Assembly: GCA_027371545.1 (NCBI GenBank)
Contig: DAHXMW010000001.1
Span: 9,378 to 73,377 of the forward strand
Length of the DNA: 64,000 nucleotides
From: Candidatus Micrarchaeota archaeon
Lineage (GTDB): Archaea > Micrarchaeota > Micrarchaeia > Micrarchaeales > CABMGC01
Direction of reading: 5' to 3'
Shown piece by piece: positions 27,870 through 33,453 of the stretch. The notes beneath the pieces are model-generated. The model saw nothing but the letters and a program-made list of their open reading frames with translations. It was not told where the DNA came from and searched no databases. Every line of letters begins with the position of its first letter. The stretch's first letter is position 1. Position numbers and translations under genes: made by a program.

Positions 27870-29369
27870 ATGACAGGAAAAAAATCAAGAAAACTGATTA
27901 TAATCGGAATAGACTCTGCGCCGCTGTGGCTTCTTAAGAAGTTCTCCGCAGAGCATGATAAAAAAGACGGATTCTCCGAGGTATTTGGCTTTGGGAAGCG
28001 GGGCGTAATTGACCTCGAATCAACAATTCCTCCAATGACAGGTGCAGCATGGCCAAGTTTCTATACTGGGCTCCAACCTTCAAAGCATGGCTCTATGGAC
28101 TTCTTTGTGCTTGACAGACACTATACAAAGCAGCTTGTATACTTTGACAACTCAAAAGGGGCGTTTTGGGATATCCTGGGAAGACGGGGATTTGAAAGTT
28201 TCATAATAACTCCGCCTATGGCTGTCTCCCCAAGCAGCGAAAAGAATGTTCAGATGATGTCCGGCTGGCCTCTAGCCCCGCGATTCAGTTCCAATAAAAT
28301 AGAGAAATACGCGAAGAAAAGCAGCTTTGCAGGGGAGCCTGAGATAGAAAGGGAACTAAAGGAAGGGCGGATAACATTGGAGGAAGCGTCAACGCAGTAT
28401 ACAGCTAGCGCTAGGGCAAGGGCCAGGATGACAATGGAAATAGCAAAGCACGAGGATTTCGATCTGCTATTCTCATGCTTCACCGAGACGGACAGAATGC
28501 AGCACTATTCTCTTAACAATCAGAAGTGGGAGAACTACGTAATGCCAATATACTATGTAATATCTGAGGCGATAAGCGAACTTTACAAGTATGCATCGGG
28601 CAATTACGATGACTTTGCCATTATGATTGTTTCTGATCATGGCGCCCAGCCGATACGCTCAAAATTCCTCATTAATTCTTGGCTTATACGCGAGGGATAT
28701 GCCAACCTGAAGAAAAGCGTAGAAGAAAAATACAACTCCCAAAAAAGTAGCCCTGATGCGAGATATAAGATAAGAGAAATGCTGATGAGGAGCAAACTAA
28801 GAAAGGTTTACGATAAAATGCCAGGGAAGATTCACAACGCTGCGTACAGGGTTGCGGGAAGTTTGCTTTCAGGCGCATCAGCAGGAAGCTACACGCGCAT
28901 ACACGATTTTGATTTCGATATGAGGCGTACAAAGGCATTCGCATCAGTATCAAACGGGCCAATCAGCATGATATGGGTAAATGATTCAAGATTCGACATG
29001 CCTTCAGTTGAAAGACCATCTAAAGGCAAGATCAAGTCAGAGATTAAGAGAAGGCTGATGGGAATAAGGTCAATGGGAAATGGCGTCATTGCAAACGTTA
29101 TAGACGGCGAAGACTATTACGGAAAGAATCCTGCATTCATAGCCCCTGATCTTCTCATCGAGGCAGAAAGAGGATTCACGATAGACGTATTCAACTATTC
29201 AAATACGTCTTTTTACATGAAACCGGAGATCTCAAGGAGCGGTGACCATCAGCGGCATGGCATATTCGCCGTCAGGAGCAGATCAAAAAATGCAAGATGG
29301 CCAGGCAGAGGAGCATGGATAGGGGATATAAACGAATATATCCTGGAGTTTTTCAATTCTAGGCGATAA
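27870..29369 (+). CDS. alkaline-phosphatase-superfamily enzyme (type I phosphodiesterase/nucleotide pyrophosphatase-like, Thr nucleophile)
   Basis: 'IIIGIDSAPLW', 'TIPPMTGAAWPSFYTGLQPSKHG', 'VSDHGA'. Confidence 0.65.
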   Translation: MTGKKSRKLIIIGIDSAPLWLLKKFSAEHDKKDGFSEVFGFGKRGVIDLESTIPPMTGAAWPSFYTGLQPSKHGSMDFFVLDRHYTKQLVYFDNSKGAFWDILGRRGFESFIITPPMAVSPSSEKNVQMMSGWPLAPRFSSNKIEKYAKKSSFAGEPEIERELKEGRITLEEASTQYTASARARARMTMEIAKHEDFDLLFSCFTETDRMQHYSLNNQKWENYVMPIYYVISEAISELYKYASGNYDDFAIMIVSDHGAQPIRSKFLINSWLIREGYANLKKSVEEKYNSQKSSPDARYKIREMLMRSKLRKVYDKMPGKIHNAAYRVAGSLLSGASAGSYTRIHDFDFDMRRTKAFASVSNGPISMIWVNDSRFDMPSVERPSKGKIKSEIKRRLMGIRSMGNGVIANVIDGEDYYGKNPAFIAPDLLIEAERGFTIDVFNYSNTSFYMKPEISRSGDHQRHGIFAVRSRSKNARWPGRGAWIGDINEYILEFFNSRR

Positions 29370-29371
29370 CA

Positions 29372-30430
29372 ATGAAAGTATATCTGCTAGGTGGGCAAGG
29401 GCGCTTCGATAATTCATCAGGGGAAGGGGTATCCACCTATATGTACGAGATATACAGGGGCCTTAAGTCAAACAAAGGCATTAAAGCCAGCAAGATCGAG
29501 TATCCAATAAGGGACAGGACAGGAGGTGCATACTCGTGGTTCCGCATGGCAGTCATCGCTTCATTCAGCGATTATAGCCATGCAGACATAATCCACAAAG
29601 TTGACGTAAAGCCAATAAATCCTGTTAGAAAAGGCGCTGCAAAGATTGTCTCTACGGCGCATGACTTCCAGCCCCTCCTCGAGCCTGCTCTTGACTCGGA
29701 TATGTCTACTTCGCTAAAGGGGAGAATCCGACTTGCGCTTGAGACCAGATACTCCCTCAGGCTTATGCTCAAATCCGATTATCTGCTCGCAAACTCCACG
29801 CTCACAAAGAACGACGCCGTAAAGCTGGGCTTTGAGGGCAGCAGAACATTCGTGATAAACCATGGCATAGACAAGGCCTACATGTCTAACATGCCACGCA
29901 AAAAGGCTGGAAAAAAGTATGTTGTAGGATACATCGGAGCATTCAGGTCACGCAAAAATGTGGGGTTTGCAATACGCGCATTCAAAATGACATCTCAGAA
30001 AAACCTGGAGTTCAGGCTTTGGGGCAACAAGAGATATGAATACGAAAAGCTTGAATCTGCCGCAAGCGATGACAAGCGCATATATTTCATGGGCTTCGCT
30101 CCAGCGCAAAAGATAGTGGAAACATATGACAGCTTTGATGCATTTGTCTTCCCTAGCCTTTACGAAGGAATGGGGTATGAGATACTAGAAGCAAAAGCCA
30201 GAGGTTTGCCGGTAATAATATACAAGCATGCAAAGATACCCGAGGAAGTAAGGCGCTACTGCATAGAGGTTAAAGACGAGGGCGCAATGGCCGACGCCAT
30301 CGAGAATCTATGCTCTAACGGCCCAGACGATAGCATCATCTCCAAGGCTATGCGCGACGCTAGAAATTTCACATGGGAGAAGACAGTATCTAAAACAATA
30401 GAAGCATATGAAGAGATACGCGAAGCCTAG
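29372..30430 (+). CDS. GT-B glycosyltransferase (family 4/1-like)
   Basis: The C-terminal half 'FVFPSLYEGMGYEILEAKARGLPVI' carries the EX7E-type motif. Confidence 0.75.
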   Translation: MKVYLLGGQGRFDNSSGEGVSTYMYEIYRGLKSNKGIKASKIEYPIRDRTGGAYSWFRMAVIASFSDYSHADIIHKVDVKPINPVRKGAAKIVSTAHDFQPLLEPALDSDMSTSLKGRIRLALETRYSLRLMLKSDYLLANSTLTKNDAVKLGFEGSRTFVINHGIDKAYMSNMPRKKAGKKYVVGYIGAFRSRKNVGFAIRAFKMTSQKNLEFRLWGNKRYEYEKLESAASDDKRIYFMGFAPAQKIVETYDSFDAFVFPSLYEGMGYEILEAKARGLPVIIYKHAKIPEEVRRYCIEVKDEGAMADAIENLCSNGPDDSIISKAMRDARNFTWEKTVSKTIEAYEEIREA

Positions 30431-31635
30431 TATATTACGCCTATACCTGCAAACTTTCCGGAATCATAAATAAGAAACCTTCCCATCTCTGGACACTCTG
30501 CAGCGCTCTCTATAACTGTGCTTTTCGAAAGCCTGACTTTTGCCTTTCCTGTGCCTAACGGCTTAATAGAGCCTGCTTTCATAATCATCCCGCTCTTCAG
30601 ATCCATCTCGCCGAATACAGAGATATCCGCCATTAGCTCAATGCCATTCATCCTTATCTGCACTTTTTTAGGTATCCTACTCACAGAAAACATCATTGCC
30701 TCAAATTCTGTACCGCACCTGGGATTGCTTTTAAGATCAAATCCCACGCATCCGCGGGTTGCAGATGCTCCTGACATTTCCAGTGCCACATTATTTCCTT
30801 CCGAAGCAACACCCCTCTCTTTTCCCTTGACATATATTGATTTAACCTGCGCGTCTTTTCCAAGAGGCATAATGCGCATCTTCTGCCCTCCTCTCAATTT
30901 CCCGGTTATCAACTTACCGGTATATAATGTCTTCTTTCCGCTCCTTATGCTTCCCTGGAACAAGAGCCTCAGCACCTGGTTACCTTCCTTTTTAGCAGAT
31001 GTTGCCTCATAAATAAGGTTCATTAGCGGCTTGCCCATATACCATCCAATGCGCGCAGAGCGCTTTACAAGATTATCTGCTTTATATGCAGATACAGGTA
31101 CAAAGCTTATCGAACTCTGTTCAAAACCTATATTCATACAGAATTCCCGTACAGAATCCCTGATAAGTTCAAACTTCTCCTTTCTATATTCAATAGCGTC
31201 CATCTTGTTTACTGCTACTACTACTCTCCTTATCCCAAGCAGTTTCGCCAGTACGAGGTGTCTCCTTGTCTGCTCCGTTATCCCTTCTCCGTCCTTCGCA
31301 GAGACCATAAGCACGGCAAAATCCCCATAAGATGCGCCGCTTATCATATTGCCTATAAGCTCTTCGTGGCCTGGAACATCTATAAATTCGAAAGCAGCGT
31401 CCTTATAAGTAATCTGTGCCCTTGTGGTGTCTATCGTCAGTCCGCCTTCACGCTCCTCCTCAAAGCTATCTAGTATGAAACCTGGCTCAAAGTTCCTTCC
31501 TAGTTTCCTGCTTACGTTTTTTGCCTCTTCAATCCTCTGTTTTGTTGCAGACCCTGTGGCTATAAGGAGGCTTCCTATCAGAGTAGATTTGCCATGATCC
31601 TTATTTCCCAGAAGGGTAACCCTTTTGATGTCCAA
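30427..31635 (-). CDS. CysN-like translational-type GTPase (putative sulfate adenylyltransferase subunit 1; no APS-kinase domain)
   Basis: G1 'GNKDHGKST', G2 'GGLTIDT', G3 'DVPGHEE', G4 'NKMD', G5 'VSAY', plus two beta-barrel domains. TTG start preceded by AGGTG. Directly downstream of CysD. Confidence 0.65.
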   Translation of the reverse strand: MDIKRVTLLGNKDHGKSTLIGSLLIATGSATKQRIEEAKNVSRKLGRNFEPGFILDSFEEEREGGLTIDTTRAQITYKDAAFEFIDVPGHEELIGNMISGASYGDFAVLMVSAKDGEGITEQTRRHLVLAKLLGIRRVVVAVNKMDAIEYRKEKFELIRDSVREFCMNIGFEQSSISFVPVSAYKADNLVKRSARIGWYMGKPLMNLIYEATSAKKEGNQVLRLLFQGSIRSGKKTLYTGKLITGKLRGGQKMRIMPLGKDAQVKSIYVKGKERGVASEGNNVALEMSGASATRGCVGFDLKSNPRCGTEFEAMMFSVSRIPKKVQIRMNGIELMADISVFGEMDLKSGMIMKAGSIKPLGTGKAKVRLSKSTVIESAAECPEMGRFLIYDSGKFAGIGVIY

Positions 31636-31643
31636 ACAAGCAC

Positions 31644-32432
31644 CTACATATATCCAAGCGCCCTTAACTTCTCCATAACATATGCTTTCTCCTTGTCCTG
31701 CTCTCTCCCTGCTCTCTCTTCAGTCTCCGTTACCTTGAGCTCACCCATTATCTGCTTGACGCTCTTTGCATTTGATTTTACGGGAACTGTGCAATGCGTA
31801 CATCCAAGGCTTCTATACCTATATCCGTTGCTGGAATAATAAAGCGGATTTACTGGCACCTTCATCTTCATTGTATACTGCCATATATCTATCTCATTCC
31901 AATCGAGTATCGGATGAACGCGTATATGCCCTTTCGTATCCATCTTGGAGGAATAGTTGTTCCAAAGCTCAGCTGGCTGGTCCTTGTAATTCCACTTGAA
32001 CTCAGTATCCCTTGGGCTAAAGTACCTTTCCTTTGCCCTTATTCCATGCTCGTCCCTGCGTATTGATACGATAAGCGCATCAAATCCGTGCTCTTTCATA
32101 ACTTCCTTTAGTGCATCTGTCTTGTTAGACCCGCAGCAACTGAATCCGGAAAGCTCCGGTTTTATCCTACTCTTAGCAACTATCAACTCCAGGCCCCATT
32201 TTTTAGCTAAGTCGTCCCTGAACTTATAAGTTTCCGGGAAGTCTATTCCGTTGTCTATATGTATCACGGGAAAAGGCACCTTTCCTAGAAACGCCCTTCG
32301 CGCTATCATTATCATTGCAGTGGAGTCCTTGCCGCCCGACCACAGCGCAGCAACATTCTCAAACTTCTCCTTTGTCTCGCGTATTATATACGCACTCTTC
32401 TCTTCCAACTCGCCTATATTCTGCATTATCAT
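31644..32432 (-). CDS. cysD: CysD-like PP-loop ATP pyrophosphatase (putative sulfate adenylyltransferase subunit 2)
   Basis: PP-loop 'LWSGGKDS', 'RRDEHGIRAKERYFSPRD', 'RYRSLGCTHCT', and the C-terminal block 'ERAGREQDKEKAYVMEKLRALGYM' collinear with E. coli CysD '...[24 protein letters not shown]'. Confidence 0.8.
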   Translation of the reverse strand: MIMQNIGELEEKSAYIIRETKEKFENVAALWSGGKDSTAMIMIARRAFLGKVPFPVIHIDNGIDFPETYKFRDDLAKKWGLELIVAKSRIKPELSGFSCCGSNKTDALKEVMKEHGFDALIVSIRRDEHGIRAKERYFSPRDTEFKWNYKDQPAELWNNYSSKMDTKGHIRVHPILDWNEIDIWQYTMKMKVPVNPLYYSSNGYRYRSLGCTHCTVPVKSNAKSVKQIMGELKVTETEERAGREQDKEKAYVMEKLRALGYM

Positions 32433-32720
32433 CTAATCCACCTTATTCATATTCGAGAGTCCTTTGAGGTAAATCAGGGCTCCTTCAAATCTCTTCCCAT
32501 CCTTAACTGCAACAGGTACTTTTGCGACAAGCTTTCTTTTCGAATCGTAAAGCCCTACGTAAGACTTGTTCATATCATCTGCCTTTCTGAGTCCATGCTC
32601 AAAGACAACGTGATAATATCTTATATTAGAACCTCCAAGCTTCTCTCGAAGCCTATTCCAATTTTCAGCAGTATTAGCCGACCACAACGAATCAACTATA
32701 TTATCAATTTCCTTAGCCAT
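32433..32720 (-). CDS. 95-aa protein of unknown function, translationally abutted to CysD
   Basis: The ORF starts at the ATG directly after the upstream TGA and ends with a TAG directly followed by the CysD ATG. No recognisable motif. Confidence 0.45.
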   Translation of the reverse strand: MAKEIDNIVDSLWSANTAENWNRLREKLGGSNIRYYHVVFEHGLRKADDMNKSYVGLYDSKRKLVAKVPVAVKDGKRFEGALIYLKGLSNMNKVD

Positions 32721-32948
32721 TCAATCGCCTAAATATCCAAGCGCCCTTAACTTCTCCATGACAGTGCTCTTCTGCCTTGCTTTTCCGTGTTTCTCCATCT
32801 CCAACTCAGCAACAGTCTCGCGCAAGACATATGTTGCGTAGTCAGAGACCGAAGAGAAACCAGTACTGCCTATAAGCCTCTCTACGTTATCAAACAGTGC
32901 TGTCGGTATCGTTATCGTTGTATACTTCCTTCTTGTATGCGTCGCCAA
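32721..32948 (-). CDS. ribbon-helix-helix (CopG/Arc-like) DNA-binding protein with a CysD-like C-terminal tail
   Basis: RHH pattern 'KYTTITIPTALFDNVERLIGSTGFSSVSDYATYVLRETV'. The tail 'VMEKLRALGYLGD' follows. No in-frame ATG; TTG at 32948 preferred, and the maximal ORF reaches a TTG at 33005. Confidence 0.6.
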   Translation of the reverse strand: MATHTRRKYTTITIPTALFDNVERLIGSTGFSSVSDYATYVLRETVAELEMEKHGKARQKSTVMEKLRALGYLGD

Positions 32949-32967
32949 GTTATCACAAATGTAATTT

Positions 32968-32992
32968 AATGTTACAACATTAAAATATAAAA
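32968..32992 (-). promoter_or_regulatory. TATA-like box plus perfect 6-2-6 palindrome upstream of the RHH gene (candidate promoter/operator)
   Basis: Minus-strand 'ttttatatttta' (32981-32992) is immediately followed by the palindrome aatgtt-NN-aacatt (32968-32981), about 20 nt upstream of the TTG at 32948. Confidence 0.4.
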
Positions 32993-33453
32993 AGACATCG
33001 GTCAATAAACCTTATGTAAAAAATTATTCTTCTACATAAGAAGTGACGATTTTTATCCATTTACTACACAAAACCCTATCAATAGGTAAATATAAGGTCG
33101 CAAAAATGCGGCAGACCTGCGCTGCTACAGTTTCAACTAACAATTGCGGCAGGCATCATCACATCGACCTATAATCATGGGTCATCGTGTCCTGACCCTA
33201 TCATCTGCCTACCGCAGGCCAAGACAGTAATGTATGTAACCTAATATTTTTAAGAATGGACAACCAACCATGCCATGCAGCTACATGCACAGCGAAAAGC
33301 GGAAAGAGAAAAAAACTCACGATAAAGTATTTCTGCAACTGTATAGATGCAGCAGCCGACTCTGCCAGCTATATTCGTTAATTAGCGAATATGGTGGCAG
33401 GTTGCACTGCATTTAAAATACTTTTTAGGCAAGTATTAAATATCGGTGGAAAA

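What the first reader, a model, noticed from the sequence alone, without database searches (positions are those of the whole stretch)
31650..32759. Perfect 27-nt DNA repeat gives the RHH protein the same C-terminal peptide (MEKLRALGY) as CysD
The plus-strand string atatccaagcgcccttaacttctccat occurs at 31650-31676 (end of cysD) and again at 32733-32759 (end of the RHH gene). On the coding strand both copies read ATGGAGAAGTTAAGGGCGCTTGGATAT = MEKLRALGY. The flanking residues are also similar (KEKAYV|MEKLRALGY|M* versus RQKSTV|MEKLRALGY|LGD*). In CysD this segment corresponds to the conserved family C-terminus (E. coli ...[11 protein letters not shown]). Identity at every synonymous position over 9 codons is more than protein-level selection requires. 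That points to recent duplication or gene conversion, or to a nucleic-acid-level function such as a shared RNA target site. My inference is that the DNA-binding protein displays a CysD-mimicking tail, which could let it compete for or sense the CysD docking partner (for example the GTPase) and so couple transcription of the operon to complex assembly.
Basis: seen in the sequence. Interest (0 to 1): 0.7.

Follow-up and report, generated by a model that had tools for sequence, protein, structure and literature searches.

The report
Repressor shares its enzymes' C-terminal tail
In a tiny archaeon, a small DNA-binding repressor ends in the same short peptide as the sulfur-activating enzyme it controls; the peptide is ancient and conserved, the letter-perfect DNA match is an occasional copy-correction event, and the shared tail probably lets the repressor sense the enzyme.

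Summary
The 27-nt repeat is real, exact, and unique to these two sites. Both copies encode MEKLRALGY at the ends of two genes in one operon: RHH regulator, p95, CysD-like PP-loop enzyme, EF-1alpha/CysN-like GTPase.

The tail is not recent. All 120 listed RHH homologues and all 120 listed CysD-like homologues carry it. The operon order holds in about 70 Micrarchaeota species.

DNA-level identity is lineage-specific. Only 8 of 73 species show an excess of identical codons. In those, both copies change in parallel between genomes, which indicates short-tract gene conversion. No RNA structure or conserved nucleic-acid element was found.

In CysD the tail is the ancestral family C-terminus. The RHH carries a copy after a variable linker. 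It sits behind a conserved TATA box and an AATGTnnnnACATT operator.

The same tail and operator also mark a CysH-like enzyme in related genomes that have no dedicated GTPase nearby.

Best reading: the RHH is an autorepressor whose tail mimics the tail of its target enzymes and docks at their tail-receptor site. This resembles CymR/CysE-CysK. The receptor is unidentified, and the GTPase is only one candidate.

The parts
32982..32993 (-). TATA box of the operon promoter (minus strand TTTTTATATTTT)
   Evidence: A TTTATATA-type box lies immediately upstream of the operator in 71 related loci. Sequence read.
32962..32987 (.). Operator: palindrome AATGTTACAACATT (core 32968-32981) within a 12-2-12 inverted repeat
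   Evidence: It is the only AATGTnnnnACATT in 64 kb. Inverted repeat I5. The same palindrome lies 30-60 nt upstream of the RHH gene in nearly all of about 75 loci.
32958..32962 (-). Extra operator half-site (minus strand ACATT), 10 nt after the palindrome's ACATT
   Evidence: An extra ACATT at +10 nt occurs in 19 of 71 loci. An extra AATGT at -10 nt occurs in 16 of 71.
32721..32948 (-). RHH (CopG/Arc-like) regulator, 75 aa, TTG start. RHH core residues 7-50, variable linker 51-62, conserved tail 63-73.
   Evidence: 257 homologues were found. Column entropy is high in the linker and near zero in the tail. AF2 gives an extended N-terminus, H16-25, H34-53 and tail helix 62-69. Pfam RHH_1 gives weak hits in 26 of 93 members.
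32733..32759 (-). Repeat copy B: encodes MEKLRALGY of the RHH tail
32433..32720 (-). p95: 95-aa protein of unknown function. Its start abuts the RHH stop (TGAATG).
   Evidence: Present between the RHH and CysD-like genes in most loci and absent from about 10%. No Pfam, NCBIfam, PHROG or PDB match. One homologue (L053) carries the same tail.
31644..32432 (-). CysD-like PP-loop enzyme, 262 aa (SGGKDS motif; four conserved Cys, CCG...GCTHC; C-terminal ...ERAGREQDKEKAYVMEKLRALGYM*)
   Evidence: NCBIfam PRK05253 scores 296 bits against a cut-off of 195; Pfam PAPS_reduct. Closest PDB sequence is 1zun_A. The family is 71-79% identical across the phylum. AF2 model.
31650..31676 (-). Repeat copy A: encodes MEKLRALGY of the CysD-like tail
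30427..31635 (-). EF-1alpha/CysN-like GTPase, 402 aa, last gene of the operon
   Evidence: Pfam GTP_EFTU. NCBIfam EF-1alpha 270 bits and CysN 217 bits, both below their cut-offs. Directly downstream of the CysD-like gene in about 70 loci.

Best explanation
Shown here:
1. The repeat encodes a short C-terminal peptide, consensus hydrophobic-hydrophobic-x-[KR]-L-[KR]-A-L-G-Y-hydrophobic. A CysD-family PP-loop enzyme and the small RHH protein encoded at the head of the same operon share it.
2. In CysD the peptide is the ancestral family C-terminus. In the RHH it follows a variable linker after the DNA-binding fold. It is invariant across the whole RHH family, so protein-level selection holds it independently in both proteins.
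3. The RHH gene sits behind a conserved TATA box plus AATGTnnnnACATT operator, the layout expected of an autorepressor.
4. The perfect DNA identity in this window is a lineage-specific result of short-tract gene conversion between the two direct copies, which lie 1083 nt apart. It is not a nucleic-acid signal.

Inferred:
5. The RHH tail acts as a molecular mimic of the enzyme tail. It docks at the site that normally receives that tail.
6. That site is either the nucleotide cleft or lid-docking surface of the PP-loop enzyme (my preferred candidate) or the EF-1alpha-like GTPase.
7. Repressor activity would then be tied to the amount or substrate state of the enzyme complex. This resembles CymR and CysE both plugging their C-terminal peptides into CysK, and RHH antitoxins using a C-terminal tail to bind the protein encoded downstream.
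For: Repeat and codon excess.

Tail conservation:
- 120/120 RHH homologues and 120/120 CysD-like homologues carry the tail.
- Per-position profiles over 70 species show L, G and Y invariant in both proteins.
- The RHH linker has 2-3.3 bits of entropy per column, while the tail is near 0.

Synteny and operator:
- The order RHH-(p95)-CysD-like-GTPase holds in about 70 of 75 informative species loci.
- TATA plus operator is found in 71 loci. The window has a single operator.

Concerted evolution:
- Only 8 of 73 loci have p<0.01 for identical codons. The other 64 show 112 identical codons against 134.5 expected.
- The window and L008 differ synonymously at 34% of cysD codons, yet both tail copies changed TTA>CTG, GCG>GCT and GGA>GGG together.
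- Over the 21 nt encoding KLRALGY, paralogues within a genome match at 20.4/21. Orthologues between genomes match at 17.0-17.4/21. Window versus L006 shows 8 parallel changes and 0 single-copy changes.

The tail is ancestral to CysD...ER[AS]GRxQDKE....MxKLR[AS]LGYM* or ...SMExKKRxGYF* ends are seen across 50%-identity cluster representatives. It aligns to the C-terminus of P. syringae CysD.

The tail travels with the regulon:
- A CysH-like PAPS_reduct enzyme next to tailed RHHs (L045, L050, L053, L059; also L068) ends in ...ERAGRGVARERIMKKLRALGYN*. In L045, L050 and L068 it has its own operator copy.
- A divergent CysD-like enzyme (L055) and one p95 variant (L053) also carry the tail.

The tail is not confidently packed into the CysD-like monomer: AF2 helix 245-258 has pLDDT about 59-65.

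Precedents: CymR and CysE peptides in the CysK active site (bioRxiv 10.1101/2024.09.19.614015), the CdiA-CT mimic (PMC5562914), and a C-terminal helix docking on aEF1alpha (PMC4267659).
Against: - No physical interaction was tested, and no multimer model could be run.
- The receptor is unknown. Loci with a tailed RHH and a tailed enzyme but no dedicated GTPase within 10 kb argue against the GTPase as the universal receptor.
- AF2 gives the RHH tail helix a fairly high pLDDT of about 85. It may therefore simply pack on the RHH core or dimer as a structural third helix.
- The RHH tolerates 1-8 residues after the Tyr, whereas CysD always has exactly one. The two tails may not be recognised identically.
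- RHH fold membership rests on weak sequence and fold scores.
- DNA binding and repression are inferred from promoter architecture only.
Confidence: 0.5

Rival explanations
1. Structural-helix rival. The RHH tail is a third helix needed for folding, dimer-of-dimers formation or cooperative operator binding by the RHH itself. It descends from the CysD tail through an ancient partial duplication but no longer shares a binding partner with it.
For: AF2 predicts the tail helix 62-69 at pLDDT about 85, with pTM 0.65 for the monomer. Extra operator half-sites at 10-nt spacing suggest cooperative multimer binding. The RHH tolerates a variable number of residues after GY, unlike CysD.
Against: It does not explain why the same seven positions (K-L-[KR]-A-L-G-Y) stay fixed in both proteins over about 75 species while synonymous sites randomise. 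It also does not explain why the tail appears on three different PP-loop enzyme types and one p95 variant, all of them next to the RHH.
Confidence: 0.2
2. First reader's specific version. The RHH tail competes with the CysD tail for a docking groove on the EF-1alpha/CysN-like GTPase, coupling transcription to CysD-GTPase assembly.
For: The GTPase is encoded directly downstream in about 70 loci. [quoted passage not shown] The CysD tail is conserved in classical CysD, which works with CysN.
Against: Tailed RHH and tailed PP-loop enzyme pairs occur with no dedicated GTPase within 10 kb. This holds for L055/L088, where only the housekeeping EF-1alpha next to S10 is present, and for L059/L089, L045, L050 and L053. 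In the CysD-CysN crystal entry 1ZUN, the CysD chain holds 204 of 325 residues. The tail region therefore appears unmodelled rather than docked on CysN (this is an inference).
Confidence: 0.2
3. Passenger rival. The RHH tail has no function and stays CysD-like only because gene conversion keeps overwriting it from the selected CysD copy, or because it was duplicated recently.
For: Clear concerted evolution in 8 of 73 species.
Against: In the other 64-65 species, synonymous sites of the two copies are no more alike than codon usage predicts (112 observed against 134.5 expected). The peptide is still intact in every one. The RHH tail has its own residue preferences: K or R at -4 where CysD has only R, and I/V/M/T at -8 where CysD has only M.
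Confidence: 0.05
4. Nucleic-acid function or artefact. The 27-mer is an RNA or DNA element (sRNA target, structure, protein-binding site), or it is a chimeric assembly.
For: Exact identity at all synonymous sites in this window.
Against: The DNA identity is absent in most species. The copies use different codons in different clades. The RNA folds no better than shuffles, with z = +0.64 and -0.87. There is no Rfam family in the window and no third copy. Independent assemblies at k = 141 carry it.
Confidence: 0.03

Closest known systems
CymR / CysE - CysK complexes (Firmicutes), and the CdiA-CT toxin that mimics CysE
   Same: A sulfur-metabolism transcription factor (CymR) and an enzyme of the pathway (CysE) each carry a C-terminal peptide that inserts into the same site of a partner enzyme (CysK). 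This links gene regulation to enzyme and metabolite state. Tail mimicry by an unrelated protein (CdiA-CT) is also documented (bioRxiv 10.1101/2024.09.19.614015; PMC5562914).
   Different: The folds differ: Rrf2-type CymR versus RHH, and a PLP enzyme versus a PP-loop enzyme. The peptide differs, ending in Ile there. The domain of life differs. In that system the two tails are not homologous at DNA level, and binding has been shown experimentally. Here binding is only inferred.
RHH type II antitoxins (for example FitA, RelB, ParD, CcdA)
   Same: An N-terminal RHH DNA-binding fold is followed by a flexible C-terminal segment that binds the protein encoded downstream. The operon is autorepressed at a palindromic operator. 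FitA and Arc/omega were among the weak fold hits, and Pfam RelB-like was hit by 3 members.
   Different: There is no toxin gene. The downstream genes are metabolic enzymes. The tail is a copy of the partner enzyme's own C-terminus, which is not a feature of toxin-antitoxin systems.
Bacterial ATP sulfurylase CysD-CysN (P. syringae, PDB 1ZUN)
   Same: A PP-loop CysD-type subunit with SGGKDS and a C-terminal ...ERxGR...GY[FM] end, encoded next to an EF-Tu/EF-1alpha-like GTPase. 1zun_A is the best sequence and fold match.
   Different: The archaeal enzyme lacks a roughly 35-residue insertion. It has four conserved Cys (CCG...GCTHC) that P. syringae CysD lacks (alignment). It falls below the equivalog cut-offs. 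Its GTPase scores closer to EF-1alpha than to CysN. No tailed RHH is known for the bacterial system.
Archaeal ribosomal stalk aP1 C-terminal helix binding aEF1alpha
   Same: A short C-terminal amphipathic helix on a flexible linker docks into a hydrophobic cleft of an EF-1alpha-type GTPase (PMC4267659). This is a structural precedent for the GTPase-docking variant.
   Different: The peptide sequence is different and the process is translation. No evidence here shows that the tail contacts the GTPase.
Concerted evolution of short paralogous tracts by gene conversion (for example tufA/tufB in enterobacteria; my own knowledge)
   Same: Paralogous copies within a genome are more alike than orthologues between genomes, with parallel synonymous changes.
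   Different: The homologous tract here is only about 27-31 nt, lies between otherwise unrelated genes, and is homogenised only sporadically (8 of 73 species).

Membership tests
Ribbon-helix-helix (CopG/Arc/MetJ) DNA-binding proteins | N-terminal beta-strand followed by two helices | tested here: met
   AF2 with 93 sequences gives residues 1-15 extended, H16-25 and H34-53, at pLDDT 90-96. The invariant RKYTTITIP segment fits the DNA-reading strand. The strand itself cannot pair in a monomer model.
Ribbon-helix-helix (CopG/Arc/MetJ) DNA-binding proteins | Significant sequence or fold similarity to known RHH proteins | tested here: inconclusive
   Pfam RHH_1 hits 26 of 93 members, best E = 0.0014, and does not hit the window protein. 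NikR E = 0.09-0.3. Foldseek top hits are Arc, omega and FitA, but with E >= 1.3. Sources name the homologues 'CopG family'.
Ribbon-helix-helix (CopG/Arc/MetJ) DNA-binding proteins | Binds inverted or tandem repeats in its own promoter | not testable with these tools
   A conserved AATGTnnnnACATT palindrome, with half-sites at 10-nt spacing, lies just downstream of the TATA box in 71 loci. This is consistent with RHH binding, but binding itself was not shown.
CysD (sulfate adenylyltransferase subunit 2) | PAPS_reduct/PP-loop fold with SGGKDS and family-level HMM score | tested here: met
   PF01507 E = 8.8e-39. NCBIfam subfamily PRK05253 scores 296 bits against a cut-off of 195. 1zun_A E = 3.3e-54.
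CysD (sulfate adenylyltransferase subunit 2) | Equivalog-level score (same function as characterised CysD) | tested here: not met
   TIGR02039 scores 217.9 against a cut-off of 396.6. PRK12563 scores 221 against 413. The protein also has a four-Cys motif and lacks an insertion found in P. syringae CysD.
CysD (sulfate adenylyltransferase subunit 2) | Conserved C-terminal ...ERxGR...GY[FM] end and an adjacent EF-Tu-like GTPase | tested here: met
   The tail aligns to the 1ZUN CysD C-terminus and is seen across family representatives. The GTPase gene lies directly downstream.
CysN (sulfate adenylyltransferase subunit 1) | Family HMM score above cut-off | tested here: not met
   TIGR02034 scores 216.9 against 336.1. 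EF-1alpha PRK12317 scores higher, 269.7, but is also below its cut-off of 502. The protein is best described as an EF-1alpha/CysN-like GTPase.
Type II toxin-antitoxin module with RHH antitoxin | Toxin gene immediately downstream of the RHH gene | tested here: not met
   The downstream genes are p95 (no match), a PP-loop enzyme and a GTPase. There is no toxin family hit. This is a resemblance in architecture only.
Tail-mimicry regulator-enzyme complexes (CymR/CysE-CysK type) | Regulator tail and enzyme tail bind the same site on a partner | not testable with these tools
   Shown here: the sequence motif is shared, it is conserved, and it co-occurs with the regulon.
Concerted evolution by gene conversion | Paralogues within a genome more alike than orthologues between genomes, with parallel substitutions | tested here: met
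   20.4/21 within genomes against 17.0-17.4/21 between genomes. Window versus L006 shows 8 parallel changes and 0 single-copy changes. The window/L008/L009 comparison shows the same co-variation. The effect is restricted to 8 of 73 species.

The most novel reading that the evidence does not exclude
A regulon-wide 'tail code' operates in Micrarchaeota. The RHH repressor and every PP-loop sulfur enzyme it controls (CysD-like, CysH-like, and sometimes p95) display the same C-terminal peptide and compete for one receptor site. The repressor would then read the free or occupied state of the enzyme machinery directly, at protein level. This would be a metabolic operon regulated like a toxin-antitoxin module, with the regulator's sensor peptide copied from the enzyme and occasionally re-copied by gene conversion.
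Probability: 0.3. Interest if true: 0.75.

Novelty: new variant of a known kind. Interest (0 to 1): 0.55.

Why it matters
Regulation in DPANN archaea is almost unexplored. These cells have very few transcription factors. Here a phylum-wide, highly conserved regulator can be assigned three things from sequence alone: its operator, its target genes, and a candidate sensing mechanism.

If the shared tail is a docking mimic, it would extend the CymR/CysE-CysK principle to a different fold, a different enzyme class and a different domain of life. In that principle a regulator borrows an enzyme's C-terminal peptide.

It would also point to a function for the universally conserved CysD C-terminus, which is structurally unseen.

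The sporadic 27-nt gene conversion between unrelated genes is a clean natural example of how little homology suffices for concerted evolution in archaea.

Tried and rejected
- Structural role of the CysD C-terminus. The 1ZUN paper is not held. Papers citing it say nothing about the tail. The PDB chain used by Foldseek has 204 of 325 residues, so no contact information was available.
- Complex modelling. The structure tool takes one chain and returns no coordinates. I therefore did not attempt fused CysD-GTPase-RHH constructs.
- p95 identity. Pfam, NCBIfam and PHROGs gave nothing. The homologue search returned only 2 proteins. A profile search against PDB gave nothing significant. The function remains unknown.
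- Natural GTPase-CysD fusions as a stand-in for the complex. Long representatives turned out to be intein-containing CysDs, APS-kinase fusions or a phosphodiesterase fusion. Only one was a G-domain fusion, and it is doubtful.
- RNA-level ideas. Rfam found nothing in the window. Folding of both tail regions was no better than shuffles. No third copy of the 27-mer exists.
- Co-variation between tail variants and partner proteins. The tail is too invariant to give a signal.
- Literature on RHH plus CysD. Nothing relevant was found.
Full report
**1.
The 27-mer ATATCCAAGCGCCCTTAACTTCTCCAT occurs exactly twice in the window, at 31650-31676 and 32733-32759. There is no further copy even with three mismatches, and none is expected by chance. 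With flanks it is a 31-nt direct repeat with one mismatch, spaced 1083 nt.

On the minus strand both copies read MEKLRALGY. One ends a 262-aa ORF (31644-32432...KEKAYVMEKLRALGYM*). The other ends a small ORF (...RQKSTVMEKLRALGYLGD*).

The same arrangement is present in an independent assembly built at k = 141 (L001). Two sister species carry it at 26/27. An assembly artefact is therefore excluded.

**2. The genes.**
Four minus-strand genes lie head to tail.
- A 75-aa RHH-like protein. Its start is most likely TTG 32948. This matches the gene called in public assemblies (P0001), and the promoter lies inside the longer ORF.
- A 95-aa protein with no recognisable family, here called p95.
- A CysD-like PP-loop enzyme. 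It hits PF01507, scores 296 bits on NCBIfam PRK05253 (cut-off 195), and its best PDB sequence match is 1zun_A.
- A 402-aa GTPase. It scores between EF-1alpha and CysN and falls below both cut-offs.

Neighbouring loci place the window in Micrarchaeota (DPANN archaea).

**3. The tail is ancient in both proteins.**
The RHH has 257 detectable homologues of 70-80 aa, and all 120 listed end in L-x-[AS]-[LA]-G-Y. All 120 listed CysD-like homologues, 71-79% identical to the window protein, end in L[RK]x[LFM]GYx*.

In 80 species-level loci the order RHH-(p95)-CysD-like-GTPase holds in about 70 of the 75 that extend far enough.

Position profiles over 70 species give these consensus tails:
- RHH: [VIL]-h-x-K-L-[KR]-A-L-G-Y-x, followed by 0-7 more residues.
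- CysD-like: E-x-x-Y-[VI]-M-[EQ]-[KR]-L-R-[AS]-L-G-Y-M*.

The RHH linker in front of the tail is highly variable (2-3.3 bits per column), while the tail is almost invariant. This is the signature of a short linear motif on a flexible tether.

**4. Where the tail came from.**
Across 50%-identity representatives of the wider CysD family, the C-terminus reads ...ER[AS]GRxQDKE....MxKLR[AS]LGYM* or, in the classical bacterial type...SMExKKRxGYF*. The window tail aligns with the C-terminus of P. syringae CysD. The peptide is therefore ancestral to CysD, and the RHH carries a copy of its last 11-13 residues.

**5. The DNA-level identity is sporadic concerted evolution.**
I compared codons at positions where the two tails have the same amino acid, using each locus's own codon usage as the null.
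- Only 8 of 73 species show an excess at p<0.01. The window has 8/8 identical codons against 2.85 expected (p = 1.7e-4).
- The other seven are L006, L021, L008, L009, L022, L024 and L018.
- The remaining 64 loci show 112 identical codons against 134.5 expected, so there is no excess.

The identical tracts use different codons in different clades. The window reads GAGAAGTTAAGGGCGCTTGGATAT, and L006 reads GAGAAGCTCCGCGCCCTCGGCTAC.

The window and L008 differ synonymously at 34% of cysD codons. Even so, both tail copies changed together: TTA>CTG, GCG>GCT and GGA>GGG.

Over the 21 nt encoding KLRALGY, paralogues within a genome match at 20.4/21. Orthologues between genomes match at 17.0-17.4/21. 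Window versus L006 shows eight sites changed in parallel in both copies and none changed in only one.

This is the hallmark of gene conversion between the two short direct copies. It recurs in a few lineages and is absent from most.

A conserved RNA or DNA function is not supported, for four reasons:
- DNA identity is absent from most species.
- The RNA shows no unusual folding, with z = +0.64 and -0.87.
- There is no Rfam match in the window.
- There is no third copy.

The 'passenger' idea holds that conversion alone keeps the RHH tail CysD-like. It fails because the peptide is intact in all the lineages where synonymous sites have randomised. The RHH tail also has its own residue preferences.

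**6. The RHH is the operon's regulator.**
Upstream of the RHH gene, 71 loci share a TTTATATA box followed immediately by the palindrome AATGTnnnnACATT. Extra half-sites often lie 10 nt away on either side.

In the window these elements are:
- TATA box at 32982-32993.
- Palindrome at 32968-32981, the only match in 64 kb. It lies inside a 12-2-12 inverted repeat.
- Extra half-site at 32958-32962.

An operator that abuts the TATA box and covers the expected transcription start is the classical layout of an archaeal repressor. That last point is inference.

AF2 gives an extended N-terminus, two confident helices, a lower-confidence linker and a tail helix at residues 62-69. Similarity to known RHH proteins is weak but consistent.

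**7. The tail follows the regulon, not the GTPase.**
In loci where the tailed RHH is not next to the canonical enzyme, it sits beside other tailed enzymes.
- A CysH-like PAPS_reduct protein occurs in L045, L050, L053 and L059, and also in L068. It scores 136 bits on NCBIfam phosphoadenylyl-sulfate reductase and ends in ...ERAGRGVARERIMKKLRALGYN*.
- A divergent CysD-like protein occurs in L055 and ends in ...LLLQKLRALGY*.

The CysH-like genes in L045, L050 and L068 have their own copy of the operator. One p95 homologue (L053) has acquired the tail too.

No dedicated GTPase lies within 10 kb in two such loci. L088 contains only the housekeeping EF-1alpha next to S10.

The minimal conserved pair is therefore 'tailed RHH plus tailed PP-loop enzyme'.

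**8. What the structures say.**
AF2 places the CysD-like tail in a helix (residues 245-258) at only about 59-65 pLDDT. The tail is therefore not confidently packed into the monomer.

The only solved CysD, 1zun_A, has 325 residues in its sequence record but 204 in the coordinate chain used by Foldseek. The sequence alignment puts the tail at residues 267-324. I infer that the C-terminal segment is unmodelled. It is neither shown buried in CysD nor shown docked on CysN.

In related PAPS-reductase-fold enzymes the C-terminal segment is a mobile active-site element. This is my own knowledge of CysH and was not tested here. It is why I rank the enzyme's own cleft slightly above the GTPase as the likely receptor.

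**9. Mechanism proposed.**
Shown:
- A shared peptide, independently selected in the regulator and in its target enzymes.
- A conserved operator and promoter layout.
- Sporadic gene conversion between the two copies.

Inferred: the RHH tail mimics the enzyme tail and docks at the tail-receptor site. Repression would then be coupled to the abundance or substrate state of the enzyme machinery.

The closest precedents are:
- CymR and CysE, which insert their C-terminal peptides into CysK (bioRxiv 10.1101/2024.09.19.614015), with CdiA-CT as a mimic (PMC5562914).
- RHH antitoxins, which bind their downstream partner through a C-terminal tail.
- For the GTPase variant, the aP1 stalk helix binding aEF1alpha (PMC4267659).

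My probabilities:
- Tail-mimicry docking of some kind: about 0.5.
- Within that, enzyme cleft: about 0.25-0.3.
- Within that, GTPase: about 0.2.
- A purely intra-RHH structural role for the tail: about 0.2.

**10. Verdict.**

The system is a new variant of a known regulatory principle. I found no description of it in the literature. Interest is moderate to fairly high, but the mechanism remains untested.

Noticed in passing
window 31644-32432 (minus strand); residues ~99-100 and ~211-214: The CysD-like enzyme has four Cys (SCCG...GCTHC) conserved in all 120 close homologues. P. syringae CysD lacks the pattern. It resembles the CC...CxxC iron-sulfur motif of APS reductases (my own knowledge). 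The enzyme may therefore not be a plain ATP sulfurylase subunit.
   Followed up: partly
L045 5556-6434(-), L050 5554-6348(-), L053 35-829, L059 4290-5093, L068 6744-7538(-): A second, CysH-like PAPS_reduct enzyme (about 264 aa) carries the same ...KLRALGY tail in place of the CysH catalytic tail. In L045, L050 and L068 it has its own AATGTnnnnACAT[TG] operator. It is usually paired with a sulfatase-family gene.
   Followed up: partly
L053 2388-2741: One p95 homologue (117 aa) has a C-terminal extension ending ...EELMRQKLSALGYM*. This is a third protein type of the operon that has acquired the tail.
   Followed up: no
window 27870-30430; L088 and L089 flanks: The RHH and PP-loop module repeatedly sits among alkaline-phosphatase-superfamily genes (Phosphodiest or Sulfatase), glycosyltransferases, STT3/AglB and S-layer genes. 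One representative (P0384) fuses Phosphodiest to PAPS_reduct. This hints at a role in sulfating surface glycans rather than in cysteine synthesis.
   Followed up: no
L005 5338-6162; proteins P0244, P0248, P0281: A free-standing LAGLIDADG endonuclease ORF lies between the CysD-like and GTPase genes in one species. Several CysD-family representatives contain LAGLIDADG inteins. This fits a highly conserved, probably essential gene.
   Followed up: no
window 32430-32725: The RHH, p95 and cysD genes are in the same reading frame and abut stop-to-start (TGAATG and TAGATG). Recombination between the two 27-nt direct copies would give an in-frame deletion of p95 and cysD, leaving an RHH that ends ...MEKLRALGYM*.
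   Followed up: no
L036 4291-6369: In one species the tailed RHH is followed by a second operator copy (4291), then a membrane protein and a NifS-type cysteine desulfurase (524 bits). This is another link between the regulator and sulfur metabolism.
   Followed up: no
PDB 1ZUN chain A: The coordinate chain holds 204 residues against 325 in the sequence record. The conserved CysD C-terminus, including the GYF end, seems never to have been seen structurally.
   Followed up: partly
L006, L020-L022, L024, L062, L068: A clade lacks p95, so the RHH gene is directly followed by the CysD-like gene. Four of these seven loci are among the eight with DNA-identical tails. Closer spacing or shared ancestry may favour conversion.
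   Followed up: no
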